A stretch of 64,000 nt of DNA from a virus (Duplodnaviria > Heunggongvirae > Uroviricota > Caudoviricetes). Positions 38,820 through 56,542 of the stretch are shown here, in pieces. The notes beneath the pieces were generated by a model that did no database searches, was not told where the DNA came from, and saw only the letters and a list, made by a program, of their open reading frames with translations. The stretch lies in the IMG/VR virus record IMGVR_UViG_3300028833_000002; one strand, 5' to 3'. Position 1 is the first letter of the stretch. Each line of letters opens with the position of its first letter. A program made the position numbers and the translations under genes.

Positions 38820-39710
38820 ATGGAATTCAAGAAATATATTGATATTGAACGCTTAAAAGAAAAATATGCTATGGCTTTTAAGCCTGGTGAAATGATTACA
38901 GTTTCCGAGAAAATTGATGGCAGCAATGCCTCGTTTGACGGTAATCTTAATGCCTTCTCTCGTCGTAAGGTATTAGACGAAACAAATACCCTTAATGGCT
39001 TTTATGATTTTGTGAAAACACTTGATGCCACAAAGGTTATGGAGGTTCTTGGTGAGAACTTTATTGTCTTTGGTGAATGGTTGTGCAAGCATACTGTAAA
39101 ATACCCAGAAGATAAGATGCATAAGTTCTACGCCTTTGACGTATGGAATAAGGAAACAGCACAATACCTTCCTTGGAGTGAAGCAAAAAAGATTATCGCA
39201 GAACTTGGTCTTAACACAGTACCAATTTTTTATGAAGGCCCATTCACATCTTGGGATGACATTAATAAATTGGTTGGACAGACAAAAATGGGGGCTTCTC
39301 CTTGCGGGGAAGGACAGGTCGTAAAATCACAGGACAGACTTGACAACAAGTCCTCAAACACCCCGGCATATGTAAAAATTGTTGATGCACGTTTCTCTGA
39401 GGTAAAGGGTCAGAAGGAACAGAAGATGGTTGACCCTGAAAAAATTGCTGCAAAGCATGCTCAGGAAGCTCTTGCTGCAACTATCGTAACAGAAAGACGA
39501 GTAGAAAAACTCATACAGAAAATAATAGAAGACGGTCTTATTCCAGCAGAATGGGATGAAAAGGACCTTGGTACAATTGCAAAGCATCTTCCAAAGGCTG
39601 TATATGCGGACTGCGTAAAGGAAGAACCGGAAACAGTTGCTCAGATTGAAAACTTTGGTAAGATTGCGGCTGGCATTGCAATGAAGCTTGCAAGAGGACT
39701 GGTAAAATGA
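38820..39710 (+). CDS. ATP-dependent RNA ligase, Rnl2-like
   Basis: Nucleotidyltransferase motifs are present: I EKIDGSN, III FGEWL, IV EGQVVK, V YVKIV. Confidence 0.65.
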   Translation: MEFKKYIDIERLKEKYAMAFKPGEMITVSEKIDGSNASFDGNLNAFSRRKVLDETNTLNGFYDFVKTLDATKVMEVLGENFIVFGEWLCKHTVKYPEDKMHKFYAFDVWNKETAQYLPWSEAKKIIAELGLNTVPIFYEGPFTSWDDINKLVGQTKMGASPCGEGQVVKSQDRLDNKSSNTPAYVKIVDARFSEVKGQKEQKMVDPEKIAAKHAQEALAATIVTERRVEKLIQKIIEDGLIPAEWDEKDLGTIAKHLPKAVYADCVKEEPETVAQIENFGKIAAGIAMKLARGLVK

Positions 39711-39907: not shown

Positions 39908-39929
39908 CTTTTTTAAAGTTGTGTTATAA
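39903..39929 (+). promoter_or_regulatory. promoter family copy (15-nt spacer)
   Basis: TTGACT-15-TGTGTTATAAT. Confidence 0.5.
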
Positions 39930-39965
39930 TTAATATATAATAAAAATTCTAAGGAGGAATTTCTA

Positions 39966-40568
39966 ATGGAAATGGGTAATTTTATGAAGGGTATGTTTGG
40001 ACCGGTTAAGGGTGGTCTTTGTCGTCTGACTATTGATGGCAATATCGCAGTAAAGGTTAATGGTGGTTATAAGGCTTATAATCCAACCGAGAAGGCTTTT
40101 GTTAACTGTGACAACTTCGTATTTGATGTTGGTGATGAAATGTTCTTCGTTATTCCTACAAATACTGTTACGGCTGGTGATATTATCCTTGCTGGCGGAA
40201 GTGAACCGGCTCCTCGTTACGTTCTCAAAGTTGCAGATGACATGATTACTTGCATTAACTACAAGAACGGTACAGTTGAGAACATCATGCCTGAACGTCA
40301 TATGTTTATGGGCAATACTTATTTCTATGGAAAGATTACAAGCCTGTTTGGCAACATGGGCGGTATGTTCGGTGCAAGCGCTGATGGCGCACAGAACGTT
40401 ATGAAGTTCATGATGATGAAGCAGTTAATGGGTGGCATGACTGGCACAGACGGTGGCAATCCGATGCTCATGATGATGATGATGAACGGTGGCGGTATGA
40501 ATATGTTTGATAATCTTTTCAAGGCTGTAAATCCTGTTGCACCAGCAGAAACAAAGGAGGGTGAATAA
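39966..40568 (+). CDS. hypothetical protein with a Met/Gly-rich C-terminus
   Basis: An AAGGAGG ribosome-binding site is present. Confidence 0.5.
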   Translation: MEMGNFMKGMFGPVKGGLCRLTIDGNIAVKVNGGYKAYNPTEKAFVNCDNFVFDVGDEMFFVIPTNTVTAGDIILAGGSEPAPRYVLKVADDMITCINYKNGTVENIMPERHMFMGNTYFYGKITSLFGNMGGMFGASADGAQNVMKFMMMKQLMGGMTGTDGGNPMLMMMMMNGGGMNMFDNLFKAVNPVAPAETKEGE

Positions 40569-40571: not shown

Positions 40572-41453
40572 ATGGGAGGGGGCTCATGGACGACTGAAAA
40601 GTTTAAGAGTTATTCTACATCAATGAGCAGAGGGGTTGACTCTACAGGTAGAGCCCTTCTTAGCGATGATGTAACCCAGAACTATACTCAGCGTGGTCTG
40701 GCAAAGGAACTTAATCCTTTTAATGTAAAGAGAGAATGTAGGGACAGTGAGGAACACCCAAATACTGTTCCTGTAATCCTCGCCCTTGACGTTACTGGTT
40801 CTATGGGTAAGGCGGCCAACGAAGTTGCCGCAGAACTTAATAACATCATGACTGAACTTTATGAAAAGGTAGCAGACGTTGAGTTTATGATTGCGGCTAT
40901 TGGTGACTTCTCTTATGATGATGCACCACTTCAGGTATCGCAGTTTGAATCTGATATTCGTATCGCTGAACAGCTTGATAAGGTTTATTTTGAACGTGGC
41001 GGCGGTCCGAATGATTGGGAATCTTATTCAGCCATTTGGAAGTTCGCGGCGGAAAGAACTGAACTTGACTGTTGGAAGAGGGGCAAGAAGGGTATTATCA
41101 TAACAATGGGTGATGAAATTCTTAATCCTTATATTGATAGTGATAAGTATGAAGAAGTAGTTAATCAGGGTTCTTTAGCTTGTGGCTTTGATACAAAGAA
41201 GATTTATGAAGCCGTAAAGGATAAGTATGACCTCTATCATATAAACGTTGACCACAGAAGCTATAAGCCAAGCCTGTCTACTTGGTATAAGACTCTTGGT
41301 AAGGACCATGTATTTGATTGCTCAGTAAAGGAAATTGCTCAGATTATTCCTCAGATTATTACTACCCATGAAAGCGAAGGCTTTATAGTTGGTGTAGACG
41401 TGGCGCCAAAGCCAGATAGTATAATCGAATTTACAAACGAAATTTCTTGGTAA
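40572..41453 (+). CDS. von Willebrand factor A domain protein
   Basis: The MIDAS motif is DVTGSMG. Confidence 0.6.
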   Translation: MGGGSWTTEKFKSYSTSMSRGVDSTGRALLSDDVTQNYTQRGLAKELNPFNVKRECRDSEEHPNTVPVILALDVTGSMGKAANEVAAELNNIMTELYEKVADVEFMIAAIGDFSYDDAPLQVSQFESDIRIAEQLDKVYFERGGGPNDWESYSAIWKFAAERTELDCWKRGKKGIIITMGDEILNPYIDSDKYEEVVNQGSLACGFDTKKIYEAVKDKYDLYHINVDHRSYKPSLSTWYKTLGKDHVFDCSVKEIAQIIPQIITTHESEGFIVGVDVAPKPDSIIEFTNEISW

Positions 41454-41465: not shown

Positions 41466-42602
41466 ATGACGGACGTAAAAATTGTAACTGGATTAAATTA
41501 TGGTGATGAGTCAAAAGGACTCGTTGCCAATGCAGTAAGCACACCTACTTGCCTGAATATCTTACCATCTAATTCTTGTCAGAGAGCACACACAGTAGTT
41601 GAAAATGGAGTGAGAAAAGTGTTCCGTCATTTTGGTAGTGGTACACTTAAAGGAGCGGCTACCTATTTCACAGATAAGTTTCTTGTAAATCCTGCTATGT
41701 TTAGACAGGAATGGGAAGAACTTGCTGCAATGGGTATCACTCCGAAGGTGTATGTACGTTTAGGGGCTATGTGTGTAACTCCTATTGATATGTTTGCAAA
41801 TGTGAATGTTGAGGAACGTCGCGGCGAAAAATCTCATTCATCTACTGGTTGCGGTGTTTGGGAAACTATATGCCGTCATAAGACTTTAGCATTTTCACAG
41901 GGTATGTATGCGTGTGAAGATATAGTTGCATATTATGAAGAAGTCTTAAAAGATAAAAATGGCATTCTGCCGGAAAATGTAAAAGAGTTCTTGCATGGTG
42001 ATTGTCTTAAAGATAATATAAATGAAGACTTTACGTGGTTCTATGAACACGTTACCGTAATTAAAGACCAGTGGGAAGAAACACAACTTCTCCACTCTTA
42101 TCCACTTCTTGTGTTTGAGAATGGTCAGGGATTACTTCTTGATGATAGATATAGCTGCGATATTAACCATAATACCCCGGCATGTGTTGGCATGATAGAA
42201 GCTGAAAGAATACTTAATCAGAATTTTCTTAGAACAGAAGTTAATGTTGAAGCACTTTATGTAACACGTTCATATTACACTCGTCATGGTAAGGGACAGA
42301 TAGGCCTATGGAGTAATTGTGAATGTGATAAGGACGAAATTAATCCATGTATGTTTGATGCCACAAATGTGCCGAACCCAAATCAGGGCACTCTACGTTA
42401 TGGTAAAATTGATGAACTTGAAGCCAAGACAATCGCGGCGAGAGCGGTCAATGATAGTATAAGTCCATTCTTTGATGTTACCACTTCTATGGTGGTTACT
42501 CATTGTAATGAATATATGAATAATTATTTAATTGATGCCGCAAACGACCAGAAATTAAATCTTTATGTTTCTTATGACGAAACTAATATTCGTAAAGTTT
42601 AA
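41466..42602 (+). CDS. adenylosuccinate synthetase family protein (PurA/PurZ-like)
   Basis: GLNYGDESKG, QRAHTV, FENGQGLLLDDRYSCDINHNTP and YYTRHGKGQ match PurA blocks. The protein is short (378 aa). Confidence 0.7.
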   Translation: MTDVKIVTGLNYGDESKGLVANAVSTPTCLNILPSNSCQRAHTVVENGVRKVFRHFGSGTLKGAATYFTDKFLVNPAMFRQEWEELAAMGITPKVYVRLGAMCVTPIDMFANVNVEERRGEKSHSSTGCGVWETICRHKTLAFSQGMYACEDIVAYYEEVLKDKNGILPENVKEFLHGDCLKDNINEDFTWFYEHVTVIKDQWEETQLLHSYPLLVFENGQGLLLDDRYSCDINHNTPACVGMIEAERILNQNFLRTEVNVEALYVTRSYYTRHGKGQIGLWSNCECDKDEINPCMFDATNVPNPNQGTLRYGKIDELEAKTIAARAVNDSISPFFDVTTSMVVTHCNEYMNNYLIDAANDQKLNLYVSYDETNIRKV

Positions 42603-42677: not shown

Positions 42678-42757
42678 GCTCTCGTGGTGGAATTGGTAGA
42701 CACGTATGCCTTAGGAGCATATGTTAATTCGTGTGGGTTCGAGTCCCACCGGGAGCA
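42678..42757 (+). tRNA. tRNA-Leu(UAG), type II
   Basis: The loop is ctTAGga, the variable arm is long, and the T-loop is GTTCGAGTC. Confidence 0.7.
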
Positions 42758-42759
42758 CT

Positions 42760-42831
42760 GTGTACGTAGTGTAATGGTTAACATGGAAGGATGTGGCCCT
42801 TCCGATGTGGGTCCAATTCCCGCCGTACACC
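42760..42831 (+). tRNA. tRNA-His(GUG); CCA encoded at 42832-42834
   Basis: The acceptor is gtgtacg/cgtacac. The loop is atGTGgc. Confidence 0.6.
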
Positions 42832-42835
42832 CCAC

Positions 42836-42909
42836 CCCCCTGTAATCCAACCGGCAGAGATAGCGCTCTTAAACAGCGTCCAGTACCAGTTCAAATCTGG
42901 TCAGGGGGA
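42836..42909 (+). tRNA. type-I (short variable arm) tRNA with anticodon UAA; Gln-like D-arm
   Basis: The acceptor is ccccctg/caggggg. The anticodon arm is gcgct-ctTAAac-agcgt. The T-arm is accag-ttcaaat-ctggt. Confidence 0.5.
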
Positions 42910-43249
42910 CTTTGATATGACAATGTATGCGAAACATGGACTCGATTAATATAGGCGTTAATTCCTCCGCGGGAGCTGCTTCTCCATGTGCTGTAGGCTC
43001 CTCATTGTCACACAAACGCTCCACAGCGAAAGGTGGCGTAATTCATTCTAGGCAACGTCAAAGCCAAATCAGGAGCTTGGTGAATGTCATTAGAGGACAA
43101 GAAAAGAGCATACCTTTTCTATCCCATTCTTAGCCGAATCTTAAACCAAGGCGTGGATGTGGAAGGGCTTGGCCCGGATGGCAACGCAGACCAACTCACG
43201 AGTGTCTAGGCGTTGAGTAGGTTTAACTTCGGTGAAAATGATTATAACG

Positions 43250-43277
43250 GGGCGAGAATTTATCTCGTCCTTTTTTA
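43250..43277 (+). terminator. rho-independent terminator
   Basis: Hairpin gggcgaga/tctcgtcc followed by TTTTTTATTTT. Confidence 0.55.
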
Positions 43278-43299
43278 TTTTGGAAAATTTTAGTTTCTA

Positions 43300-43328
43300 T
43301 TGACTTTTACTTTAAATTGTGTTATAAT
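43300..43328 (+). promoter_or_regulatory. promoter family copy
   Basis: TTGACT-17-TGTGTTATAAT followed by the leader. Confidence 0.6.
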
Positions 43329-43377
43329 ATATATAGAAAGTTAAGAGAAAGATAAAAACAGAAAGGACGTATCGCTT

Positions 43378-43746
43378 ATGTTAGAATACTTTAACTACGA
43401 AAACTTAGAATTCAAGGGTTTAATCTACAGCCAGAACGTTCCACTTGCCGCAGTTAATGAAGATGAACACATCTGTTGCGGTAGACTTACAGCGTTTGTT
43501 AAGGCTTTTAACAGCAAGGGTAGTTTATCAATTGAATACGGTTTCAGCGATGATGACGACTGGGAACAGTTCCGTGGTTTCAGATGCGAAAACGAAGTAG
43601 AACAGAAGCGTATGTTCGAGGAAATCGTTAGAATTACAAAAGACTTTTGTTCGTTCTACAAGGTAGGTTTTATTCCGGACTTCTACGAAGACTGGTCAAA
43701 GGTCGTAGATTCTACTCTCGGTAAGGCTTCAAAGTATGATTATTAA
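43378..43746 (+). CDS. hypothetical protein
   Basis: A promoter copy lies upstream. Confidence 0.5.
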   Translation: MLEYFNYENLEFKGLIYSQNVPLAAVNEDEHICCGRLTAFVKAFNSKGSLSIEYGFSDDDDWEQFRGFRCENEVEQKRMFEEIVRITKDFCSFYKVGFIPDFYEDWSKVVDSTLGKASKYDY

Positions 43747-43765
43747 TTGAAAGGAATATGAAATT

Positions 43766-44053
43766 ATGAAAATGTGTAAGAATTGCAGAAAAGAATATGG
43801 TTGGAGCAGATATGATGAATATTGCTGCAAGGAATGTTGGGAAGCCAATTATTGGGAGAAGGCTCTTGATAGCAAGGCTATTATAATTGGCGGTCATTGT
43901 TATCATGCTTATGGCGGCAAGTTTGATAAGTCAAAGAAGATTAAGATTAGAATGAATGATGGTACGCTTATTGAAACCTATGAACTGTTCGATGGCGGCA
44001 AGATACCGAGAAAGTTCCATATGAAAGATAATGCAAAGTTTGTTAAGTGGTGA
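43766..44053 (+). CDS. Cys-rich protein Confidence 0.45.
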   Translation: MKMCKNCRKEYGWSRYDEYCCKECWEANYWEKALDSKAIIIGGHCYHAYGGKFDKSKKIKIRMNDGTLIETYELFDGGKIPRKFHMKDNAKFVKW

Positions 44054-44068
44054 GCAATCACCACATAT

Positions 44069-44142
44069 GCTCTCGTAGTCCAATGGCAGTAGACAGTGCA
44101 CTCAAAATGCATCCAGTGTGGGTTCGAATCCCATCGAGAGCA
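44069..44142 (+). tRNA. type-I tRNA with anticodon CAA; Gln-like D-arm (paralogue of 42836)
   Basis: The acceptor is gctctcg/cgagagc. The anticodon arm is gtgca-ctCAAaa-tgcat. The T-arm is gtggg-ttcgaat-cccat. Confidence 0.5.
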
Positions 44143-44163
44143 CTTGGAAAAATCTGGTAGGTG

Positions 44164-44192
44164 TTGACTTTTACTTTAGATTGTGTTATAAT
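44164..44192 (+). promoter_or_regulatory. promoter family copy
   Basis: CTGGTAGGTGTTGACT-17-TGTGTTATAAT followed by the leader. Confidence 0.6.
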
Positions 44193-44203
44193 ATATATAG
44201 AAA

Positions 44204-44410
44204 ATGAGAAAGGAAGTAAAAAATATGTTTATTATGAATAATGGCGACCCAAAGAAGAACGCGGCCTCATATCTTTTTTCTTGTAAGAATTGTGGATGTG
44301 AATGGATGGCAGAACGAAAAGAGGTTTCAATTACACCGCCTTGTTTACCATATGCGATTTATATGAAGTGTCCGAATTGTAGAAAGACGGTAGAAGCAAA
44401 GGAGAGATAA
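44204..44410 (+). CDS. zinc-ribbon protein
   Basis: CKNCGC...CPNCRK. Confidence 0.45.
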   Translation: MRKEVKNMFIMNNGDPKKNAASYLFSCKNCGCEWMAERKEVSITPPCLPYAIYMKCPNCRKTVEAKER

Positions 44411-44412
44411 AA

Positions 44413-45534
44413 ATGTTAAAGATTCAGGAGTTTATTTTTGCACATGAAAATTGGCGTGAACTTTTGTCTGCCGCACCATATAATCTTAAAATTACAGAAG
44501 ATGATGGTTTCGTTATCTTTAAGTATAATCAGATAGATTCTGACTTTAACGAAGAAATTTGCAAAGAAGCTCGTGGTCTTATTCTTGACTCTACTGACAA
44601 CTTTAAGGCTGTTAGAATGGCGTTTAAAAAGTTCTTTAATCTCGGGGAATCTCATGCCGCAAAAATTGATTGGAATACTGCGACAGCCGGAGAAAAACTT
44701 GACGGTAGCCTTATGTCTGTATGGTATGCTCGCGGCGAATGGCATTTAAGCACCAATGGTACCATTGATGCCTTTAAAGCTCCACTTAACGGTGTTGGTC
44801 CATACAAGAACTTCGGTGAGTTATTTACTTCTGTAATGCCATTAGATTTCTTCGAAGGTGAACACTTCGGTAAGAACTGGGCAGACTTAAACTTATGTTT
44901 CACTTTCGAGTTAGTTTCTCCTTATAACAAGGTTGTTATAGACTACCCTGAAACAAAGGTATACTTACTTTCTATGCGTGAGATGGACACACTTCACGAA
45001 ATTAGCGGTGATGTAGTTAGAACTTTTGGTAAGATTAACGGCCTCAACCTTCCACAAGAATACAAACTCAGTAATGAAAAGGAATTTTGTGAGCTTGTAG
45101 AGTCTATGCCGGACGGCCATGAAGGTATCGTAGTTCGTGATATGTACAATGAACGTGTAAAGATAAAGACAAAGAGATACTTTGAACTTCATCGTATGGT
45201 TAACAATGGTGTAATTACTATTGAAAGAATTGTAGAATTAATCAAAGCAAATGACTATGAAGAGCTTTTAGCCTACTATCCGGAGATGACAGAAAAATTC
45301 ACAAAAATTATGTATCAGATACAATCCGCTGATGCTTACATCAAAAGAGTAAAGGCAGAAGTTAACACTTGTAAGAAATTTCAGGCCAACCGTAAAGATT
45401 TTGCCGAGTTCGCAAAACAGCAGAAAATCCCGGCATTATACTTCGCCGCGCTGGATGGAAAGATAGACAATTTTGTTGAGAAATTAACCACAAATCAGTT
45501 CATTAAGATGTTTAAGATAGGAGAAGACATATGA
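44413..45534 (+). CDS. RNA-ligase-like nucleotidyltransferase (Rnl1-like)
   Basis: Motif I is GEKLDGS, motif IV EGIVVRD, motif V VKIKTKR. Confidence 0.6.
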   Translation: MLKIQEFIFAHENWRELLSAAPYNLKITEDDGFVIFKYNQIDSDFNEEICKEARGLILDSTDNFKAVRMAFKKFFNLGESHAAKIDWNTATAGEKLDGSLMSVWYARGEWHLSTNGTIDAFKAPLNGVGPYKNFGELFTSVMPLDFFEGEHFGKNWADLNLCFTFELVSPYNKVVIDYPETKVYLLSMREMDTLHEISGDVVRTFGKINGLNLPQEYKLSNEKEFCELVESMPDGHEGIVVRDMYNERVKIKTKRYFELHRMVNNGVITIERIVELIKANDYEELLAYYPEMTEKFTKIMYQIQSADAYIKRVKAEVNTCKKFQANRKDFAEFAKQQKIPALYFAALDGKIDNFVEKLTTNQFIKMFKIGEDI

Positions 45535-45773
45535 CAAAAACAGAATATTACATTTCACTCATTTGCTCGACATTTCTATTAAGCCTTAAAACAATTGGTA
45601 TTCCTTTTATTATCGCCGCGATATGCTTCTTTATCTTCGGCTTTAAGGAATTTCCAATGTGGATTTGGTTTTTAAGTTATGGATTAATGGAGAATTGGAA
45701 AAGCTGTAGGTCAGCATTGAATTTGATGCTGGTTGGTATGAGTAGGATGGATGATAAGGATGGGAAAAATTAA
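45531..45773 (+). CDS. small membrane protein Confidence 0.45.
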   Translation: MTKTEYYISLICSTFLLSLKTIGIPFIIAAICFFIFGFKEFPMWIWFLSYGLMENWKSCRSALNLMLVGMSRMDDKDGKN

Positions 45774-45779
45774 CACCAC

Positions 45780-45808
45780 TTTACAAAAACCTTAATTTAT
45801 GCTATAAT
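45780..45808 (+). promoter_or_regulatory. promoter family copy
   Basis: TTTACA-17-TATGCTATAAT followed by the leader. Confidence 0.55.
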
Positions 45809-45840
45809 ATATATAGAAAATCAGGAAGGAACTAAAAACT

Positions 45841-46146
45841 ATGATGTCATTTGAAAATTTCGACAATTTTATGAACAAACTTATTGATAAGTTTCAGACA
45901 GCAGAAGATTTCTACAATAAAATTGATGCGGCACTTGGTAATTGTGCTTGTGAGCCGATTATCGAGCATAGTGGTCTTTATCTTGCAGTTCAGATTCTTG
46001 CGGCAGCCGTTGGTGATAAGAATGAATGGGTTGAATATTTCTTTTATGAAGCAAACATGAAGCCATTCACGGCCGAGGTAGATGATAGGAAAATTGTAAT
46101 TTGCAATAATCAAGACCTTTATCAGTTAATTTTGGGAGTGATTTAA
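45841..46146 (+). CDS. hypothetical protein Confidence 0.5.
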   Translation: MMSFENFDNFMNKLIDKFQTAEDFYNKIDAALGNCACEPIIEHSGLYLAVQILAAAVGDKNEWVEYFFYEANMKPFTAEVDDRKIVICNNQDLYQLILGVI

Positions 46147-46214
46147 TGAATACGCCGCGATTTCCTTTATATGAATTTATTTCATTTCATTTCATTTAAT
46201 ATTTCTCCTATAAA

Positions 46215-46350
46215 TTTTTTCCAAAGTTGGAAATTTTTTTCCAAGGTATTGAGGAATCATATGGTAATTTTTTTCCAAGGTTGGAAATTTTTTTCCAAGG
46301 TCTTGAAAAATCATATGGAAAATTTTTTCCAAGGTTGGAAATTTTTTTCC
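46215..46350. repeat. iteron array: about 2.5 direct repeats of a ~54-bp unit, each with the inverted repeat TTTCCAAGGTTGGAAA (candidate replication origin)
   Basis: Units run 46215-46267, 46268-46322 and 46323-46350. They are flanked by (ATTTC)x3 and a further TTGGAA...TTCCAA inverted repeat at 46384-46401. Confidence 0.55.
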
Positions 46351-46425
46351 TGTAGTATTTTTATTCCAAAACTACATTATTTTTGGAAGAAAATTTCCAA
46401 ATGATTTTTCGAGAGAGGTGATATA

Positions 46426-46965
46426 ATGACCTACCCAAATCAATTTGAAATGAAAATTATCAAAAAGAGAGAAGAGGAGGTTTTTCTTATGATAGATTGG
46501 AAAGATATTACAACGGCGGGAAATGTTCTATCTGCTTCTGCCTTTAAGTTATTTCTGTATTTATCAAAAAATAAGGACGGATATAACTTTTATTTTAGCC
46601 CTAAAGACTTTATAAATAACTTTGAAATGAGTGACAAGACGTATCGAAACGCACGTTTGGAACTTATAGAAAAAGGATATTTGGTTCAGAATGGAAATAC
46701 GCTGACATTTAATTCTAAAGGGGGATTAAATATAGACCCGGAAAGATTGCGTGAACAAATTCTTGAATTGGATAAAGAATTGGAAGCTATAGATATGCAA
46801 GCGGAAATGGAATATAAAGAATATTTAACCAAAAAGAACCTTAAACAGTTTAAAGAAGATAATATTCCAATCTCTTTATATATCGCGGCATTAAAGGAAG
46901 CCTTAAACCACGGTTATGAAATTAAAAACAAATATAGTTCTGTTGAATTAAAGGATATTATTTAA
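46426..46965 (+). CDS. candidate replication initiator / replisome-organiser N-domain protein
   Basis: It lies immediately downstream of the iteron array. A winged-helix-like segment reads FKLFLYLSKNKDGY...TYRNARLELIEKGYL. Confidence 0.5.
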   Translation: MTYPNQFEMKIIKKREEEVFLMIDWKDITTAGNVLSASAFKLFLYLSKNKDGYNFYFSPKDFINNFEMSDKTYRNARLELIEKGYLVQNGNTLTFNSKGGLNIDPERLREQILELDKELEAIDMQAEMEYKEYLTKKNLKQFKEDNIPISLYIAALKEALNHGYEIKNKYSSVELKDII

Positions 46966-46977
46966 GGGAGGTAAGTA

Positions 46978-47541
46978 ATGATAATTGGGATAGACATCGA
47001 CAACGTTCTAGTCAACACCACAGAGTGTGTGCTGGAATACCTAAACGAACGAACGGGACTTAATCTTAAACTGGAAGACATCAAGACCTACAGCATCGAA
47101 GATTATGTTCCGCCCGAAAACAGATTGCTTGTTCCCGAAGCCTTTGAATCAAAACATATGTGGAAAAAGGTTGACTTCATCGAGGGCGCAACAGAAGCAA
47201 TAAAGAAACTGGTTGAAGATGGTCATGAGATTTATTTTGCTACGGCTACCTTGCCGGAAAACCTTAAAAAGAAAATGAACCATCTTTCAAGGAATCTCGA
47301 TTTTCTTGGACTCGATTACATCAAAAGCCACACAATATGTATCACCAATAAACAGTTGCTTAGGTTTGATGTGATGATAGATGATTTTCTTGGTAATCTT
47401 CGCGGCGAAAGAACGTATGAATCTATTTGTTTGGCTTATCCGTGGAATGAGTTTACAGAAGAAGATGATAAAGATGAACGTCTTTATAGGGTAGATAATT
47501 GGCGTGAAATTTATTTGTTAATAAAGATATTTTTAGGTTAA
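46978..47541 (+). CDS. HAD-family 5'(3')-deoxyribonucleotidase-like
   Basis: The N-terminal motif is GIDIDNVL (DxD). Confidence 0.55.
   Translation: MIIGIDIDNVLVNTTECVLEYLNERTGLNLKLEDIKTYSIEDYVPPENRLLVPEAFESKHMWKKVDFIEGATEAIKKLVEDGHEIYFATATLPENLKKKMNHLSRNLDFLGLDYIKSHTICITNKQLLRFDVMIDDFLGNLRGERTYESICLAYPWNEFTEEDDKDERLYRVDNWREIYLLIKIFLG
47399..47409. repeat. exemplar TTCGCGGCGAA
   Basis: Perfect palindrome inside a CDS. Confidence 0.6.
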
Positions 47542-47553
47542 AGGAGTATTAAT

Positions 47554-48069
47554 ATGTTTGAATATAAAGGCAAAACTTACAAAGGTGCACAGGAATTACT
47601 TGACAACTATCGCAAACTTGATGAGGAGTTTTGGGACTATCATGAAGAAGAAGGCCTTGAAGAAAAACGGCAAAAAGCAGAAGAAGCATGGGACGCTGTG
47701 TTTGCATATTGGATGAAACTTCTTAAAGATGCCACAGTTGGTATGAAGGATGTTTCAGAAGATGAGTATGATGAGGTTTACTACGGTCTGCTTGATGAAA
47801 TTGAGATTCTGGTAGAAGATATAATTGAAGCAGATAGTGCTACTGATTATAAAGTTACATATCGTGATTTGGAAAAGACTTATGAAAATCGCACTTATTA
47901 CTTTGAAGATTTTGCACCTAGTAAGCTCATTTTTGGTATTGATGCTACTTATTCTCCATATTACGGCTGTGAGTTTGATAGATTAAACCCAAAAGCATAC
48001 CTTAAAGTACCAGTAACAAAATATGAATACAGACCAATAGGCACAATGGAGAGTGATGAAGATGAGTGA
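47554..48069 (+). CDS. hypothetical protein Confidence 0.5.
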   Translation: MFEYKGKTYKGAQELLDNYRKLDEEFWDYHEEEGLEEKRQKAEEAWDAVFAYWMKLLKDATVGMKDVSEDEYDEVYYGLLDEIEILVEDIIEADSATDYKVTYRDLEKTYENRTYYFEDFAPSKLIFGIDATYSPYYGCEFDRLNPKAYLKVPVTKYEYRPIGTMESDEDE

Positions 48070-48553
48070 TGAAATTCGTATACCAAAAGCTCTAAAGAGT
48101 CCGGATTATTATATGCATCTTAAAGAAAAGCTAAAGGAACAGCAAGCTAAGATAAAAAACGAAGAAGCGATTGCATATGAAATTCGCGGCGAAATAGAAA
48201 CATATCAGCAAGAAAGATTAAAGTCGCTTGTTGGTAGATATTTTAAGACCAAAGATGGTGATGTATTTGTTGTTGTTGGAGTTCCAAAAGTAAGCTATAC
48301 AATGACAAGTAAACTCTTTAATCCTTATCAGATACCGGTTTTAATAGCCACTTTAGGTCAGAAAAGAGGTATCGTTGTCGGAACAGAAATGTATGTTGAA
48401 GCTGAAACCGTTTTTAGTAGGGCGGTTGATGCAGAAGACCCAGAAGCTAAATTTCTTTCAGAATATACCGAGATAACCAAAGATGAGTTTTTCGCCGCGA
48501 TAATTGATAACTTAACCGGCATTGTTGACGCACTGGAGGAAGACCATGGATAA
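48053..48553 (+). CDS. hypothetical protein Confidence 0.5.
   Translation: MMKMSDEIRIPKALKSPDYYMHLKEKLKEQQAKIKNEEAIAYEIRGEIETYQQERLKSLVGRYFKTKDGDVFVVVGVPKVSYTMTSKLFNPYQIPVLIATLGQKRGIVVGTEMYVEAETVFSRAVDAEDPEAKFLSEYTEITKDEFFAAIIDNLTGIVDALEEDHG
48183..48193. repeat. exemplar TTCGCGGCGAA
   Basis: Perfect palindrome inside a CDS. Confidence 0.6.
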
Positions 48554-48926
48554 ACTAACACATTGCGATAAGATGTTTTATTGTTGTTTAGGCGCAGTAG
48601 CAGATAAAAATAGTTATCGCTTATACAAAGAATATCTTAAATCAAAAGGCGGCACATTAGACCATAAATATGGACACACCTTTGCATACCTAAACATATC
48701 AACAGCCACCGATGATATGTCCTTTGTAAATTCATTTATCAATATGTGCGGAGGCCTACTCCATGATGGACTCATAGTAATGGAAATCCACATTGACGGA
48801 GATTTCTCTGATGCAGTCCACGAATCTATTGTAGACTTTGCTGAATATTGGCTTGGTGAATTTATGGACTATATCGGCACAATTCACAATTCTATTATTT
48901 TTGGTTTGAAGCCTGAAAATATTTGA
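48546..48926 (+). CDS. hypothetical protein
   Basis: ATG 48546 follows a GGAGGA ribosome-binding site. Confidence 0.5.
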   Translation: MDKLTHCDKMFYCCLGAVADKNSYRLYKEYLKSKGGTLDHKYGHTFAYLNISTATDDMSFVNSFINMCGGLLHDGLIVMEIHIDGDFSDAVHESIVDFAEYWLGEFMDYIGTIHNSIIFGLKPENI

Positions 48927-48997
48927 GGGCTTTTCAAAATAAATTACATATTAGTATCGCGGCGAAAACCGTGAAATAAAAATCGAGGTGAATTTGA

Positions 48998-49246
48998 ATG
49001 AAGAAGATTGCACTTGCTGCACTTGTTGCTGTAATGGCAGTTGCTTGCTTCGCTTGCACCGCTCCTGGTTCTGAATCAAGCGATAAGGTAGAAGAAACAA
49101 CTGTAGTATCTGAAACTGTTCTCGAAACAGAAGCAGAAACAACTGTTGAATCTACTGAAGCTGAAACAGAAGCAGAAACAACAGAAGCTGAGACAGTTCT
49201 CGAAACAGAAGCAGAAGTATCTGAATCTGTTCTCGAAACAGAATAA
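48998..49246 (+). CDS. small lipoprotein with Glu/Thr repeats
   Basis: The lipobox is AVAC. ETEAETT repeats are shared with the protein at 17884. Confidence 0.5.
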   Translation: MKKIALAALVAVMAVACFACTAPGSESSDKVEETTVVSETVLETEAETTVESTEAETEAETTEAETVLETEAEVSESVLETE

Positions 49247-49444
49247 TAGCCTAAGAAGGACAACTTTACTCAACTAAACCCCACGTGGAAGTGGTGAAAC
49301 TCCCCGATTGGGATGGTATGGCATCCTAGGAGTGTTGGCTCCACCATACATATTTTGCGGCTTGGTGAAAATAGTTATCACATATCCCTCATAAGGATAA
49401 GTTCAGGGCGCACTTCCCTGAGCCGCGATTTCGAGGTGTATTAT

Positions 49445-49615
49445 ATGAAACAAGACCTTATTGAAATTGAAGCATTTTGTCAAGTAGAAGACTGTTGTTT
49501 TGGCTGTCCTTATGAAGATGAATGTTTTGACCAATTTCTCATGTATGGTTTTATACACGCAAAGGATTGGATGGAACACTTTACCTGTATATTCTATGCG
49601 GAAGGAGAAGTCTAA
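49445..49615 (+). CDS. small Cys-rich protein (56 aa)
   Basis: An internal ATG with a GAGGTG ribosome-binding site. The upstream part of track ORF 49313 looks non-coding. Confidence 0.35.
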   Translation: MKQDLIEIEAFCQVEDCCFGCPYEDECFDQFLMYGFIHAKDWMEHFTCIFYAEGEV

Positions 49616-49635
49616 TTGGAAAAATTTATAAAATA

Positions 49636-49664
49636 TTGACTTTTTCTTAATTTTATGATATAAT
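49636..49664 (+). promoter_or_regulatory. promoter family copy
   Basis: TTGACT-17-TATGATATAAT. The 20 nt upstream are identical to the copy at 54792. Confidence 0.6.
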
Positions 49665-49698
49665 ATATATAGAAAGTTAAGAGAAAGGACTTGAAAGT

Positions 49699-50469
49699 AT
49701 GACACTTAAAGAAAAAGCTACAAGATTTCTTAATGAAAAGGCATTTGACCTCTTTGAAATGCTCAAAACTACAGAGCTTACAAATGATGAACAGATTGGT
49801 TTAGTTGAATCATTTCAGTTCGAGAAAGCTGGTTATCACCCAGTTTGTGGTATGACTAAGGTTTGCTTTGTTTTTGATGATTTTGTAATCAAGACAAGTT
49901 TTGACTATAAGGTTATGTATCCACTTACTGGCGATGGTGTTTCAAAGAAAGTTATAGAACTCGAAGATGCTTGCGAAACAGAATATCTTGCATACAAAAA
50001 GGCTGTTGAGGAAGGTCTTGGCGACTTCTTCTTTGAAACAGATTATCTTGGTTGTGGTATCTACGTTCAGGAAAGATGTGAAGAATCACTTCAGGACGCT
50101 AGATATTCTAGAGATGAATTTGATTCTGCTACAAAAGAGTATAACGAATATGAAAAAGAGTGCGCAATTGATGCACTTGTAGATTCCATCCCAGAAGAAG
50201 AAGCTGAGATAGATGTTGACGAGTATACAACAGTTGGCGATTCTGTAAGATACGTTGACTCTTATCTTAAAGAAGACTGCGTGACAAACTTCATTCAGAC
50301 ATATGACAGTGGTTCAATGGTTAAACTTGCAAGATTCCTTTTTAATTATGACATCACTGACATTCACGATGGAAACGTTGGCTTCGATAAGGTTGGTAGA
50401 CTTAGAATTTTTGATTTTAGCGGTTTCTGCTCTTCTACAAGAGAGCTGGTGAAAGGAGTAAAGGCATGA
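49699..50469 (+). CDS. hypothetical protein
   Basis: A promoter copy lies upstream. Confidence 0.5.
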   Translation: MTLKEKATRFLNEKAFDLFEMLKTTELTNDEQIGLVESFQFEKAGYHPVCGMTKVCFVFDDFVIKTSFDYKVMYPLTGDGVSKKVIELEDACETEYLAYKKAVEEGLGDFFFETDYLGCGIYVQERCEESLQDARYSRDEFDSATKEYNEYEKECAIDALVDSIPEEEAEIDVDEYTTVGDSVRYVDSYLKEDCVTNFIQTYDSGSMVKLARFLFNYDITDIHDGNVGFDKVGRLRIFDFSGFCSSTRELVKGVKA

Positions 50470-50831
50470 TTTGGTTGATTTTAATGGGTATTACGATTGT
50501 GATAATGATTATTAGTTGTATCAAAACCAAATATTTATGGGCTTTTGTTCTAATATTGTTTGGTTTTGAACTTATAATAGCCGGACATGTTAGATATGAT
50601 GATAAGCCATCTGACATGAATGTGGTAGAAATAACGGCTAAACTTGAATGTGATTCGGATTATCTTAACGTTATGGGTTATACAGAAGCTGTTGAATATA
50701 ATAAACGAGTTGAAATGACACAGAAACTTAGTGATTCTGTATGGTTCGGCGCGATTGTTAGAGGAAAAGATAAAATGGCAGACCCAATACCTCTTGAAAA
50801 CTATAAAATTACCAAAAATTGTAAGGATTAA
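50466..50831 (+). CDS. membrane protein Confidence 0.45.
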   Translation: MIWLILMGITIVIMIISCIKTKYLWAFVLILFGFELIIAGHVRYDDKPSDMNVVEITAKLECDSDYLNVMGYTEAVEYNKRVEMTQKLSDSVWFGAIVRGKDKMADPIPLENYKITKNCKD

Positions 50832-50843
50832 GTTTCTTAACTC

Positions 50844-50872
50844 TTTACAAAATCTGAAATCTATGTTATAAT
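50844..50872 (+). promoter_or_regulatory. promoter family copy
   Basis: TTTACA-17-TATGTTATAAT. Confidence 0.55.
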
Positions 50873-50903
50873 AAATATAGAAAATAAAGAAAGGATGTTG
50901 TTT

Positions 50904-51449
50904 ATGGGACAGGAATTAATAGTTAACTTAGAATTTAAATCCGAAAAAACAAATAAGGTTAATGAGTTTCTTGTTTGCTATTGGAGAAAAGGTTGGAGCA
51001 TGACAGATAAAATCATGAGCACCTTTAAGAAGAGTAAACATAAGATTAGCGAAAGTGAAGATGGTCAGGAGATTGTTCTTCGTGCGAATAGCATTTATGA
51101 CCTTAGAGATTTGCTTTATAAGGAACTCGGTGATACCGAAGCTGATAGTTTCCAGCACTCTTTTTGGGGCGCATATAGATGTTATCAGCAGACCATTTCT
51201 CAGTTCGGAAATGTAAGTGCATGGATTCAGTTTTGGGAAAATCGTTTTAATGTGCTTGATGAACTTGAAAATGCTCAGGCCGATGGCGAATCTCCATGTT
51301 TTGATGGATGTTTTGACCCGGATGCCCTTAATGATATGTTTACACTTTATACAGATAGTGAAGCGACAGATAAGGAAAAGGAATTCATTTGGGTTCTTCA
51401 TCACCTTGATGAAATGGAAGTAACTTTAAAAATTGGAAATTATTTTTAA
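50904..51449 (+). CDS. hypothetical protein
   Basis: The second ATG is used. The first ATG lies inside the conserved leader. Confidence 0.5.
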   Translation: MGQELIVNLEFKSEKTNKVNEFLVCYWRKGWSMTDKIMSTFKKSKHKISESEDGQEIVLRANSIYDLRDLLYKELGDTEADSFQHSFWGAYRCYQQTISQFGNVSAWIQFWENRFNVLDELENAQADGESPCFDGCFDPDALNDMFTLYTDSEATDKEKEFIWVLHHLDEMEVTLKIGNYF

Positions 51450-51452
51450 GTC

Positions 51453-51481
51453 TTTACAAAAACAAAAAATTATGGTATAAT
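51453..51481 (+). promoter_or_regulatory. promoter family copy driving tRNA-Gln(UUG)
   Basis: TTTACA-17-TATGGTATAAT. Confidence 0.55.
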
Positions 51482-51518
51482 AGATATAGAAAGTGAGAGA
51501 GAAATCTCTCACAGATAC

Positions 51519-51591
51519 TGCTCCATAGTGGCAATTGGTAAAACAGCGGAATTTGACTCCGTATTTCCAGGTTCGAATCCTGGTGGGGCAA
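51519..51591 (+). tRNA. tRNA-Gln(UUG)
   Basis: The loop is atTTGac. U1:A72 is present. It has its own promoter at 51453. Confidence 0.65.
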
Positions 51592-51624
51592 TCGAATTTT
51601 TTAATTCAGAAAGGATTTTTAATT

Positions 51625-52035: not shown

Positions 52036-52048
52036 GAAACCTTAATTC

Positions 52049-52077
52049 TTTACAAATTCTAAAAATTATGTTATAAT
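52049..52077 (+). promoter_or_regulatory. promoter family copy
   Basis: TTTACA-17-TATGTTATAAT. Confidence 0.55.
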
Positions 52078-52101
52078 AATTATAGAAAATGAGAAAGGAA
52101 C

Positions 52102-52284
52102 TTGATTATGACAAGATGGAATGTAGTTAGAATAAATCCTGAAACAAAGGAAAGAATTCCTCTTCCTGCTTCTTACTCTGATAAGAAATATGCTGAGGAT
52201 TTAGCTAGAGCATTTAATTATGAATGGAAGCATCCTGAAACTGGTTTAGTTTTTAAACTTGAAGTTGAGAGCCGTGAAGTTTAA
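52102..52284 (+). CDS. small protein Confidence 0.4.
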   Translation: MIMTRWNVVRINPETKERIPLPASYSDKKYAEDLARAFNYEWKHPETGLVFKLEVESREV

Positions 52285-52287
52285 TTC

Positions 52288-52906: not shown

Positions 52907-52912
52907 TTAAAT

Positions 52913-53159: not shown

Positions 53160-53165
53160 GTTTGA

Positions 53166-56541: not shown

Positions 56542-56542
56542 T

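What the first reader, a model, noticed from the sequence alone, without database searches (positions are those of the whole stretch)
41466..42602. PurA-family enzyme (378 aa): auxiliary AMP-synthesis gene or PurZ of a 2-aminoadenine (Z-base) genome?
PurA blocks are clearly present (GDESKG, QRAHTV, FENGQGLLLD...NTP, YYTRHGKGQ). The protein is short and divergent. This is how phage PurZ, the enzyme that makes 2-aminoadenine deoxynucleotides, appears relative to cellular PurA.

A stand-alone HD phosphohydrolase (DatZ-like), a MazG-like enzyme (MazZ) or a DpoZ polymerase would usually accompany PurZ. None is obvious in this window, apart from the HD domain fused to the kinase at 23029. This is therefore a hypothesis only.
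Basis: inference. Interest (0 to 1): 0.7.

Follow-up and report, generated by a model that had tools for sequence, protein, structure and literature searches.

The report
PurA-like enzyme with vWA partner
This phage gene encodes a divergent relative of the AMP-synthesis enzyme PurA; it is not the PurZ enzyme of 2-aminoadenine genomes, but the catalytic member of a widespread three-gene cassette, not found described in the literature searched, that almost always includes a von Willebrand-A (metal-site) protein.

The parts
39912..39941 (+). Promoter-like site (TTTAAA-18-TATAAT) upstream of the first cassette gene. It is followed by the Shine-Dalgarno sequence AAGGAGG at about 39951.
   Evidence: This is a consensus match only; the number of such sites in the region is not above the shuffle expectation.
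39966..40568 (+). Cassette gene 1: a 200-aa protein. It has a conserved N-terminal domain of about 125 aa, then a basic patch, a Met/Gly-rich segment and an acidic tail.
   Evidence: ORF. No Pfam, PHROG or PADLOC hit. A homolog lies upstream of the vWA gene in 79/80 viral loci, 61/80 genomic loci and 132/152 distant loci. Proteins of analogous composition and position (no significant sequence match) are in Vibrio phage pv27 and Rhizobium phage RHph_Y65. PDB profile hits are weak only: intein Hint E 0.1, SH3 E 0.3.
40572..41453 (+). Cassette gene 2: a 293-aa von Willebrand A domain protein. It has a MIDAS-like motif (D73-V-T75-G-S77 ... S151 ... D181) and an invariant N-terminus (MGGxxW).
   Evidence: AF2 model pLDDT 83. 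The top 50 Foldseek PDB hits are all vWA / integrin I domains. Invariant residues are listed. phrog_2971, function unknown, 7.5e-51. 6244 homologs, with no Pfam vWA domain assigned. A homolog lies directly upstream of the PurA-like gene in Vibrio (2.6e-48), Rhizobium (3.5e-38) and Mycobacterium (5.8e-31) phages.
41466..42602 (+). Cassette gene 3 (the finding): a 378-aa PurA-like enzyme of a distinct clade of the adenylosuccinate-synthetase superfamily.
41502..41519 (+). P-loop G13-D14-E15-S16-K17-G18. Asp14 corresponds to the catalytic Asp13 of E. coli PurA, the position that is Ser in PurZ/PurZ0.
41580..41594 (+). Q39-R40-A41-H42-T43. His42 corresponds to the catalytic His41 of PurA. Gln39 replaces the IMP-phosphate ligand Asn38, and Arg40 is specific to the query's subfamily.
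42279..42290 (+). T272-R273-H274-G275. His274 replaces Val273 of PurA, PurZ and PurZ0. This is the hallmark of the vWA-linked family (17/17 diverse members and 117/117 close members).
42357..42401 (+). Loop D298-A-T-N-V-P-N-P-N-Q307-G-T-L-R311-Y312. It aligns with the aspartate-binding loop of PurA (ATTGRRRR). The Thr-Thr and Arg-Arg dyads of all aspartate-using clades are replaced.
   Evidence: Alignment confidence is moderate.
42498..42512 (+). T345-H346-C-N348-E349. It aligns with the guanine-recognition motif T-K331-L-D333 of E. coli PurA.
   Evidence: Alignment confidence is moderate.

Best explanation
The gene is the enzymatic member of a conserved three-gene operon: a Met/Gly-rich protein, a vWA/MIDAS protein and a PurA-like enzyme. 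The operon travels as a unit in large phages, plasmids and bacterial chromosomes. The enzyme belongs to a distinct clade of the adenylosuccinate-synthetase superfamily that I found no functional characterisation of. It is not PurZ, and the phage shows no sign of a 2-aminoadenine pathway.

Shown:
- The fold is that of the superfamily.
- The PurA catalytic set is retained: Asp13, Lys16, His41, Gln224 and Thr239 (E. coli numbering).
- The family has its own invariant signature: Asn38 to Gln, Val273 to His, Ser240 to Pro.
- The family forms a separate clade.
- The gene is near-obligately linked to the vWA gene.

Inferred:
- The enzyme still performs the PurA-type two-step reaction: NTP-dependent phosphorylation of the 6-oxo group of a hypoxanthine-type (IMP-like) nucleotide, followed by displacement by an amine. 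Retention of Asp13 argues for a substrate without a 2-amino group.
- The loop that binds L-aspartate in PurA, PurZ and PurZ0 is replaced by a different, equally conserved loop. The guanine-specifying Lys331/Asp333 are replaced by His/Asn. The amine substrate and the NTP are therefore probably not aspartate and GTP.
- The product would be an N6-substituted adenine nucleotide (or nucleotide adduct), rather than adenylosuccinate destined for AMP.
- The vWA protein, through its metal site, probably acts as a bound partner: substrate presenter, regulator or target.

The biological role (nucleotide signal, modification, or counter-defence) is unknown.
For: Superfamily membership and fold.

Not PurZ:
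- Asp, not Ser, at position 13 in 117/117 close and 17/17 diverse members.
- PurZ HMM 12.9 bits against a cutoff of 300, with positive controls at 350-397.
- PDB profile ranking: bacterial PurA 1e-18, archaeal PurA 2.5e-9, PurZ 5e-3, PurZ0 0.03.
- hhalign against E. coli PurA 98.6% over 260 columns, against phiVC8 PurZ 78% over 51 columns. Global profile alignment 7.6e-45 against PurA and 4.9e-20 against PurZ/PurZ0.
- Separate clades at 100 / 100 / 98.5% bootstrap.
- No DatZ/MazZ/DpoZ in the window, in the complete 176 kb relative MT835469 or in 160 loci.
- DatZ-carrying phage records are a different set.

Not ordinary PurA:
- 34.7 bits against a 402 cutoff, whereas a genuine Lachnospiraceae PurA scores 435.
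- Remodelled loops.

Cassette:
- Colinear block in an otherwise unrelated phage.
- Vibrio, Rhizobium and Mycobacterium phages.
- 79/80 viral loci and 73/73 genomic loci with enough upstream DNA.
- Rhodococcus plasmid.
- Near-identical phyletic profiles in 50,697 phage records: 223 versus 220 records.
- No other window gene is comparably linked.
- Tight operon spacing.
Against: There is no biochemical evidence, and substrates are inferred from aligned residues only. The C-terminal third aligns with PurA only in a forced global profile alignment at moderate confidence, so the equivalences R303 to Thr309 and D333 to Asn348 could be off by a register. Arg311 may functionally replace Arg303/305. 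Some family members keep Asp at the D333 position. Most residues needed for canonical adenylosuccinate synthesis are present, so the enzyme might simply make adenylosuccinate, with the vWA protein playing an unrelated or regulatory role. Gene linkage does not prove physical or functional interaction. The remaining ~116 kb of this phage's genome (size inferred from ~180 kb relatives) was not available.
Confidence: 0.55

Rival explanations
1. Ordinary auxiliary metabolic gene. A phage-encoded adenylosuccinate synthetase makes adenylosuccinate from IMP, aspartate and GTP (or ATP) to boost the AMP/dATP supply for an AT-rich genome. The vWA protein merely regulates or localises it.
For: The catalytic residues Asp13, Lys16, His41, Gln224 and Thr239, and most IMP contacts, are retained. 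By profile comparison the family is closer to bacterial PurA than to any other group. The window is about 38% GC and carries another nucleotide-metabolism gene, NT5C at 46978-47541.
Against: The protein scores about 10-fold below every PurA equivalog cutoff. The Thr-Thr / Arg-Arg aspartate loop kept by PurA, PurZ and PurZ0 is replaced, and Lys331/Asp333 are replaced. The family is a separate clade. The cassette also sits in bacterial chromosomes and plasmids of organisms expected to have a housekeeping PurA (not checked in these genomes), and it is almost never separated from the vWA gene.
Confidence: 0.28
2. PurZ. The enzyme condenses dGMP with aspartate to make the precursor of 2-aminoadenine, and the phage has a Z-substituted genome.
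Against: - Asp, not Ser, at the position that defines PurZ/PurZ0; the preprint says an earlier study found that S14D abolishes substrate selectivity in phiVC8 PurZ.
- The PurZ HMM score is far below its cutoff, with working positive controls.
- The protein lies outside the PurZ+PurZ0 clade.
- No DatZ, MazZ/DUF550, DutZ or DpoZ partner was found anywhere tested.
- Genuine purZ genes sit next to datZ/mazZ or a DNA polymerase I gene, and this gene does not.
- The PHROG label is a catch-all that E. coli PurA also hits at 2e-146.
- The differences in fold scores are too small to discriminate.
Confidence: 0.02
3. A non-metabolic NTPase-vWA machine. The PurA-like protein acts mainly as a P-loop NTPase switch or remodeller, paired with a vWA adaptor in the manner of MoxR-vWA, NorQ-NorD or chelatase pairs. 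It would act on a protein client, possibly the Met/Gly-rich protein.
For: vWA proteins commonly pair with P-loop ATPases, and the NorD vWA domain is among the fold hits. After the AdSS superfamily, the fold neighbours are SIMIBI-class GTPases such as SRP54, FtsY and FlhF. The third partner is low-complexity and variable: Met/Gly-rich, or a kinase with a weak J-domain signal.
Against: The residues specific to purine-nucleotide chemistry (Asp13, His41, Gln224, Thr239) are invariant across a very diverse family. That is not expected if only NTP hydrolysis mattered.
Confidence: 0.12

Closest known systems
Bacterial adenylosuccinate synthetase PurA (e.g. E. coli PurA, PDB 1ADE/1CG0)
   Different: About 50 residues shorter. 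Far below the equivalog cutoffs. Asn38 to Gln, Val273 to His, Ser240 to Pro. The aspartate loop ATTGRRRR is replaced by TN..N..QGxLRY, and the guanine motif TKLD by TH.NE. Separate clade. Almost always encoded next to a vWA gene.
PurZ and PurZ0 (phiVC8, S-2L, SH-Ab 15497; Arthrobacter, Streptomyces and Microbacterium phages), the dGMP-using enzymes of Z-genome phages
   Different: PurZ and PurZ0 have Ser at position 13 (6/6 here; 147/147 in PMC12884076). They keep Val273 and the TTVTKxxRR loop and pass the PurZ HMM. They sit beside datZ/mazZ or a DNA polymerase I gene and occur in a different set of phages.
Short archaeal PurA (Pyrococcus horikoshii, PDB 5K7X/2D7U)
   Different: Profile E-value is only 2.5e-9, against 1e-18 for bacterial PurA. 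I did not have its full sequence for a residue-level comparison.
P-loop NTPase + vWA pairs (MoxR-vWA, NorQ-NorD, Mg-chelatase ChlI-ChlD)
   Same: A P-loop NTPase encoded next to a MIDAS-type vWA protein. This is an analogy of gene pairing only; NorD appears among the fold hits of the partner.
   Different: The NTPase here is of the PurA type and keeps its purine-nucleotide active site, and it is not an AAA+ protein. No homology between the NTPase partners is implied.

Membership tests
PurZ / PurZ0 (succino-amino-deoxyadenylate synthase) | [quoted passage not shown] | tested here: not met
   The query has Asp14-Glu15. Asp is present in 117/117 close and 17/17 diverse family members, and Ser in 6/6 PurZ/PurZ0. 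The criterion comes from PMC12884076 and 10.1101/2025.10.22.683976.
PurZ / PurZ0 (succino-amino-deoxyadenylate synthase) | Score above the curated cutoff of the NCBIfam PurZ model NF038379 (300 bits) | tested here: not met
   12.9 bits. Positive controls: phiVC8 397, S-2L 350, PurZ0 Wawa 365. Other family members score 37-54.
PurZ / PurZ0 (succino-amino-deoxyadenylate synthase) | Phylogenetic placement inside the PurZ+PurZ0 clade | tested here: not met
   In the NJ tree (347 columns, 200 bootstraps) the family is monophyletic at 100% and the PurZ group is separate at 100%. A simple distance method was used, not maximum likelihood.
PurZ / PurZ0 (succino-amino-deoxyadenylate synthase) | Genomic company of dATP/dGTP-clearing enzymes (DatZ, MazZ/DUF550, DutZ/DmtZ, DUF5664) and often DpoZ | tested here: not met
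   None was found in the window by Pfam or tblastn. None was found in the complete 176 kb relative MT835469 or in 160 related loci. DatZ-bearing phages are a different set. The rest of this phage's own genome was not available.
PurZ / PurZ0 (succino-amino-deoxyadenylate synthase) | dGMP + Asp + ATP/GTP to dSMP activity; 2-aminoadenine in virion DNA | not testable with these tools
   Requires an enzyme assay and nucleoside LC-MS.
Adenylosuccinate synthetase superfamily (Pfam PF00709) | Score above the Pfam gathering threshold, and the characteristic fold | tested here: met
Canonical PurA (IMP:L-aspartate ligase, GDP-forming; NCBIfam equivalogs) | Score above the equivalog cutoffs (368-700 bits) | tested here: not met
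   The best score is 34.7 bits against 402. A genuine PurA from [Eubacterium] eligens scores 435.
Canonical PurA (IMP:L-aspartate ligase, GDP-forming; NCBIfam equivalogs) | Catalytic residues Asp13, Lys16, His41 and Gln224 (roles known from the E. coli enzyme; my own knowledge of the Honzatko/Fromm literature) | tested here: met
   Asp14, Lys17, His42 and Gln221 are invariant in the family.
Canonical PurA (IMP:L-aspartate ligase, GDP-forming; NCBIfam equivalogs) | Aspartate-binding loop with Thr300/Thr301 and Arg303/Arg305 | tested here: not met
   The loop reads TNVPNPNQGTLRY. Forced global hhalign maps T301 to Gln307 and R303 to Thr309. The motif comparison across 29 sequences is. Alignment confidence is moderate, and Arg311 may substitute for one Arg.
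Canonical PurA (IMP:L-aspartate ligase, GDP-forming; NCBIfam equivalogs) | Guanine specificity residues Lys331 and Asp333 | tested here: not met
   The aligned residues are His346 and Asn348. Some family members have Asp at the second position. From memory: the E. coli D333N mutant switches from GTP to XTP (Kang et al. 1994), which is recalled and was not checked here.
von Willebrand A domain with MIDAS (partner protein 40572-41453) | vWA fold and a DxSxS...T...D-type metal site | tested here: met
   The top 50 Foldseek hits are all vWA / I-domains. D73-x-T75-x-S77, S151 and D181 are invariant. Metal binding itself was not tested.
Known or candidate anti-phage defence systems (PADLOC-DB) | HMM match of any cassette protein | tested here: not met
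   There are no hits for the three cassette proteins. Only the actinobacterial kinase partner hits generic kinase models.

The most novel reading that the evidence does not exclude
The vWA-linked PurA-like enzymes are a new class of purine-nucleotide ligases. They activate the 6-oxo group of IMP (or dIMP) and join it to an amine other than free aspartate, such as another amino acid, a polyamine, or an amino group of the partner proteins (for example the invariant Gly-rich N-terminus of the vWA protein). The product would be an N6-substituted adenine nucleotide or a protein-nucleotide adduct used by phages, plasmids and some bacteria in a so far unrecognised nucleotide-based function: signal, modification or counter-defence.
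Probability: 0.35. Interest if true: 0.8.

Novelty: new variant of a known kind. Interest (0 to 1): 0.6.

Why it matters
- **Annotation.** The label '2-aminooxy adenylosuccinate synthetase' (PurZ) comes from a catch-all PHROG. In the RefSeq and PHROG-style annotated records seen here it is attached to this family in phage genomes including cluster C mycobacteriophages, Rhizobium Kleczkowskaviridae and Va1-like vibriophages; the family as a whole is found in over 200 phage records. Read literally, the label would wrongly predict Z-substituted DNA in all of them. The Asp/Ser position and the vWA neighbour give a simple rule to tell the two groups apart.
- **Biology.** A large and diverse family is almost always encoded with a vWA/MIDAS protein, across phages of at least three bacterial phyla plus plasmids and chromosomes. 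It comprises 620 clusters at 50% identity below E 1e-30, and the partner has over 6,000 homologs. This points to a conserved function that I found described nowhere. The active site keeps PurA's nucleotide-activating residues but changes the loops that align with the sites for the second substrate and the NTP base. This suggests new purine chemistry that can be tested directly with cultured phages.

Tried and rejected
- **Megablast** of the region against the phage collection found no match.
- **The PHROG label** was rejected as evidence after the control showed that E. coli PurA hits the same PHROG.
- **Loss of Arg143** (the inter-subunit IMP-phosphate ligand) was suggested by MAFFT. hhalign places the invariant Arg137 beside it, so I make no claim.
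- **An RNA-repair role for the cassette** was considered, because the window holds Rnl1, an Rnl2-type ligase, Thg1, a kinase-HD protein, Macro, cREC and TROVE, and the mycobacteriophage has Pnk nearby. Across 152 distant loci, however, no such gene accompanies the cassette in more than 26 loci. The association is a feature of this phage lineage, not of the cassette.
- **Defence-system membership:** no PADLOC hit.
- **The Met/Gly-rich protein:** there are no family hits. The weak PDB profile hits to an intein Hint segment (E 0.1) and an SH3 domain (E 0.3) are inconclusive.
- **Sequence search of the vWA partner against the PDB** gave only a spurious TssA hit. Its fold had to be identified from the AF2 model.
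- **Literature searches** for a PurA-vWA pairing, for phage PurA homologs in counter-defence and for Bixzunavirus adenylosuccinate found nothing relevant.
- **tblastn with E. coli PurA** against the window gave no hit, although HMM methods detect the relationship.
Full report

**Is it PurZ?** The literature gives explicit criteria. In a survey of 481 phage PF00709 homologs, the catalytic Asp13 of E. coli PurA was 99% conserved in the PurA group. It was replaced by Ser in all 147 phage PurZ/PurZ0 sequences (PMC12884076). [quoted passage not shown] The preprint also says that an earlier study found that S14D abolishes selectivity (10.1101/2025.10.22.683976).

I fetched genuine PurZ (phiVC8, S-2L, SH-Ab 15497), PurZ0 (Arthrobacter phage Wawa, Streptomyces phage Hiyaa, Microbacterium phage Theresita) and cellular PurA (E. 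coli, Nocardia, Listeria, Haladaptatus, [Eubacterium] eligens). The results:

- **P-loops.** PurZ reads Q(F/Y)G-S-TGKG, PurZ0 reads GS-EAKG, PurA reads WG-D-EGKG and the query reads YG-D-ESKG.
- **Position 13.** Asp is present in 117/117 close relatives and 17/17 diverse relatives.
- **PurZ HMM.** NCBIfam's PurZ model scores the query at 12.9 bits (cutoff 300). It scores phiVC8 PurZ 397, S-2L PurZ 350 and PurZ0 365, so the model works.
- **PDB profile ranking.** A family profile ranks bacterial PurA at E about 1e-18, short archaeal PurA at 2.5e-9, and PurZ/PurZ0 at 0.005-0.2.
- **Profile-profile comparison.** Against E. coli PurA the result is 98.6% probability over 260 columns. Against phiVC8 PurZ it is 78% over 51 columns. 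In forced global mode the E-values are 7.6e-45 and 4.9e-20.
- **Tree.** A bootstrapped NJ tree (347 columns, 200 replicates) gives three separate groups: the query's family (100%), PurZ+PurZ0 (100%) and cellular PurA (98.5%).

**Companions of PurZ.** Genuine purZ genes sit beside datZ/mazZ or a DNA polymerase I gene.

- Pfam annotation of 85 window ORFs finds no YfbR-type HD, MazG, DUF550, DUF5664, dUTPase or family-A polymerase.
- Six-frame tblastn with phiVC8 and S-2L DatZ, MazZ and DpoZ gives nothing better than E 0.14. That hit is the generic HD motif of the polynucleotide-kinase-HD fusion at 23029-23991.
- A complete 176,210-bp relative from human faeces (MT835469.1; PurA-like 37.5% identical) has no hit at E<=1 to any of these genes.
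- None occurs within +-8-10 kb in 80 viral and 80 genomic related loci.
- Across 50,697 phage records, DatZ occurs in 94 records: podovirus-type Vibrio, Aeromonas, Acinetobacter, Shewanella and others, with no Mycobacterium or Rhizobium among the groups listed. The query's family occurs in 223 records: Mycobacterium 202, Rhizobium 10, Va1-like Vibrio 6.
- The hit list of real PurZ (Arthrobacter 105, Vibrio podoviruses 38, Microbacterium 18 and so on) hardly overlaps.

**Is it an ordinary PurA?** Not by the curated tests. Its best NCBIfam equivalog score is 34.7 bits against a cutoff of 402, while a genuine Lachnospiraceae PurA scores 435.

- **Residues kept.** The family keeps the catalytic set: Asp14, Glu15, Lys17, His42, Gln221 and Thr237, corresponding to E. 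coli D13, E14, K16, H41, Q224 and T239.
- **Signature of its own.** Asn38 becomes Gln (16/17 diverse members). Val273 becomes His (17/17 diverse and 117/117 close members; Val in all PurA, PurZ and PurZ0). Ser240 becomes Pro. In the query's subfamily Ala39 becomes Arg.
- **C-terminal third.** The last ~100 residues align with nothing in local mode. By motif and forced global alignment, the aspartate-binding loop differs. That loop keeps a Thr-Thr and an Arg-Arg dyad in every aspartate-using clade where the motif was located (PurA TTGRxRR; PurZ/PurZ0 TTVTKxxRR). In the family it reads (T/S)N..N..Q(G/D)x(L/F/I)(R/K)(Y/F), with Gln307 and Arg311 invariant. The guanine motif T-K331-L-D333 reads T-H-x-(N/D)-E.
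- **Caveats.** These equivalences carry moderate confidence. I withdrew an initial impression that Arg143 is lost, because hhalign places the invariant Arg137 next to it.

**The unexpected result: a cassette.** MT835469 shares almost nothing with the window except a colinear block of three genes: a 200-aa Met/Gly-rich protein (52% identity), a 293-aa protein (50%) and the PurA-like gene (37%). The evidence that this is a conserved unit is as follows.

- **In the window.** The genes lie at 39966-40568, 40572-41453 and 41466-42602, with gaps of 3 and 12 nt. Each has its own Shine-Dalgarno sequence, a promoter-like site lies at 39912-39941, and new promoter-like sites appear only after the PurA-like stop codon.
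- **The middle protein.** It has no Pfam vWA domain and no name in any source, despite 6,244 homologs. Its AF2 model (pLDDT 83) is a von Willebrand A / integrin I-type domain: the top 50 Foldseek PDB hits are all of that fold. It has invariant MIDAS-like residues (D73-x-T75-x-S77, S151, D181) and an invariant N-terminus, MGGxxW.
- **In cultured phages.** Its homolog lies directly upstream of the PurA-like gene in Vibrio phage pv27 (2.6e-48), Rhizobium phage RHph_Y65 (3.5e-38) and Mycobacterium phage MoMoMixon (5.8e-31). The Vibrio and Rhizobium phages also have a Met/Gly-rich protein in front of it; phmmer detected no significant similarity to the window protein, so that correspondence rests on composition and position. 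The mycobacteriophage instead has a protein kinase with a weak J-domain signal.
- **In a plasmid.** The same kinase-vWA-PurA-like trio is on a Rhodococcus koreensis plasmid.
- **In uncultured phages and genomes.** In IMG/VR, 79 of 80 loci have both partners upstream. In GTDB genomes, all 73 loci with at least 1 kb of upstream DNA have the vWA gene. These include large contigs of cultured Mediterraneibacter hominis (a prophage-like context) and Lachnospiraceae AC2031, whose ±8 kb locus shows no phage structural genes: a two-component system, an NrtR-type Nudix regulator, a methyltransferase and TetR.
- **Specificity of the linkage.** Among 152 loci whose PurA-like protein is under 50% identical to the query, the vWA gene is present in 146 and the Met/Gly-rich gene in 132. 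No other window gene exceeds 26.
- **Phyletic profiles.** In the phage collection the two genes have nearly identical profiles: 223 and 220 records, with Mycobacterium 202/201, Rhizobium 10/10 and Vibrio 6/6.
- **Family size.** There are 4,236 clusters at 50% identity with E<=1e-3, 3,002 with E<=1e-10 and 620 with E<=1e-30.
- **Prior description.** No cassette protein matches PADLOC defence models. I found no paper that describes the pairing.

**Mechanism (inference).** The invariance of Asp14, Lys17, His42 and Gln221 over a very diverse family argues for a working enzyme. It would perform the first PurA half-reaction, the NTP-dependent phosphorylation of the 6-oxo group of a purine nucleotide. 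Retention of Asp at position 13 argues for a hypoxanthine-type (IMP-like) substrate, not a guanine-type one. The replacement of the aspartate loop by a different, strongly conserved loop, and of the guanine-recognition residues, argues that the amine and the NTP differ from those of PurA. From memory, the E. coli D333N mutant switches from GTP to XTP (Kang et al. 1994); I did not check this here. The near-obligate vWA partner, with an intact metal site, most simply acts as a bound subunit: presenter, regulator or target.

My confidence in the parts of this picture is as follows.

| Statement | Confidence |
|---|---|
| Distinct vWA-linked clade, not PurZ | about 0.9 |
| Proposed chemistry | about 0.45 |
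| Composite best explanation (as scored) | 0.55 |
| Rival: ordinary auxiliary PurA | 0.28 |
| Rival: NTPase-vWA machine without nucleotide ligation | 0.12 |
| Rival: PurZ | 0.02 |

**Limits.**
- The tree is a distance tree.
- The C-terminal residue equivalences come from forced profile alignment, not from superposed coordinates.
- No multimer prediction was possible.
- Only 64 kb of this phage's genome, inferred to be ~180 kb from its relatives, was examined, although relatives and phyletic profiles cover the gap.
- Whether virion DNA is canonical can only be settled experimentally.

Noticed in passing
window 1-18000 (and 21159-22196); tRNA at 24714-24788: TAG appears to be recoded as a sense codon in the structural (late) genes. 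Reading through TAG merges fragments into + strand ORFs of 1196 aa (1775-5365, 7 TAG), 535 aa (7539-9146, 13 TAG, where no standard ORF exists), 1346 aa (10729-14769, 4 TAG) and 975 aa (14781-17708, 8 TAG). Total ORF length rises 32%, against 10% for TGA read-through. A suppressor-type tRNA with anticodon CTA is encoded at 24714-24788. The region from about 19 kb to 64 kb, including the cassette, mostly reads in the standard code.
   Followed up: partly
window 42678-59683: There are 26 tRNA genes in several arrays, covering most amino acids. One array starts 76 nt after the PurA-like stop codon.
   Followed up: no
window 23029-23991, 27711-28534, 29106-29918, 38820-39710, 44413-45534, 60099-61754: A rich set of RNA-repair-type genes: AAA_33 polynucleotide kinase fused to HD, a cREC receiver-like domain, Macro, Thg1 (tRNA-His guanylyltransferase-like), an Rnl2-type RNA ligase, a T4 Rnl1-type ligase and a TROVE/Ro60-like protein. 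Band-7/SPFH, metallophosphoesterase and NT5C genes are also present. The set is not linked to the cassette across distant loci.
   Followed up: partly
L183:3443-5044 (Rhizobium leguminosarum plasmid pRLN3, NZ_CP025015.1): A 533-aa plasmid-borne 'adenylosuccinate synthetase' has Ser at the Asp13 position and clusters with PurZ/PurZ0 (100% bootstrap). It carries an N-terminal P-loop kinase-like extension (weak AAA_18 hit) and lies near a metallophosphoesterase gene. It is a bacterial PurZ-like fusion that may deserve its own look.
   Followed up: partly
L008:6001-7251, L009:6001-7113, L010:5980-7308 (RefSeq and GenBank phage records): The PurA-like genes of Rhizobium phage RHph_Y65, Vibrio phage pv27 and Mycobacterium phage MoMoMixon, and of the other RefSeq/PHROG-annotated records listed, are annotated '2-aminooxy adenylosuccinate synthetase'. 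The label comes from phrog_1211, which also matches E. coli PurA at 2e-146. These genes have Asp13 and a vWA neighbour, so the PurZ-type name is probably wrong.
   Followed up: yes
L010:3535-4665 and L184:2191-2796: In the actinobacterial versions of the cassette (Mycobacterium phage MoMoMixon gp256 and a Rhodococcus koreensis plasmid), a protein kinase takes the place of the Met/Gly-rich protein (Pkinase 2.7e-8; weak DnaJ signal, E 0.009). One metagenomic context (L014) also has a weak DnaJ-domain gene upstream of the vWA gene.
   Followed up: partly
window 39966-40568 and homologs (alignment A3): The N-terminal domain of the Met/Gly-rich protein gives weak profile hits to the C-terminal part of an intein Hint domain (Pho RadA intein, E 0.1). 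In many members a Cys lies near the start (GMCRL) and a Gly-Asn-Thr near the end (FMGNTY). The Cys is absent from the Vibrio and Rhizobium phage versions, so this may be only a small beta-barrel resemblance.
   Followed up: partly
L141:9304-13197 (Lachnospiraceae bacterium AC2031 chromosome): Immediately downstream of the chromosomal cassette lies a 1297-aa protein with no Pfam or PADLOC match, followed by an NrtR-type Nudix regulator.
   Followed up: no
six IMG/VR loci among L015-L094: In six viral loci about 1.1 kb separates the vWA and PurA-like genes, instead of under 220 nt, which suggests an inserted gene between them. One locus (L043) shows no vWA hit at all.
   Followed up: no
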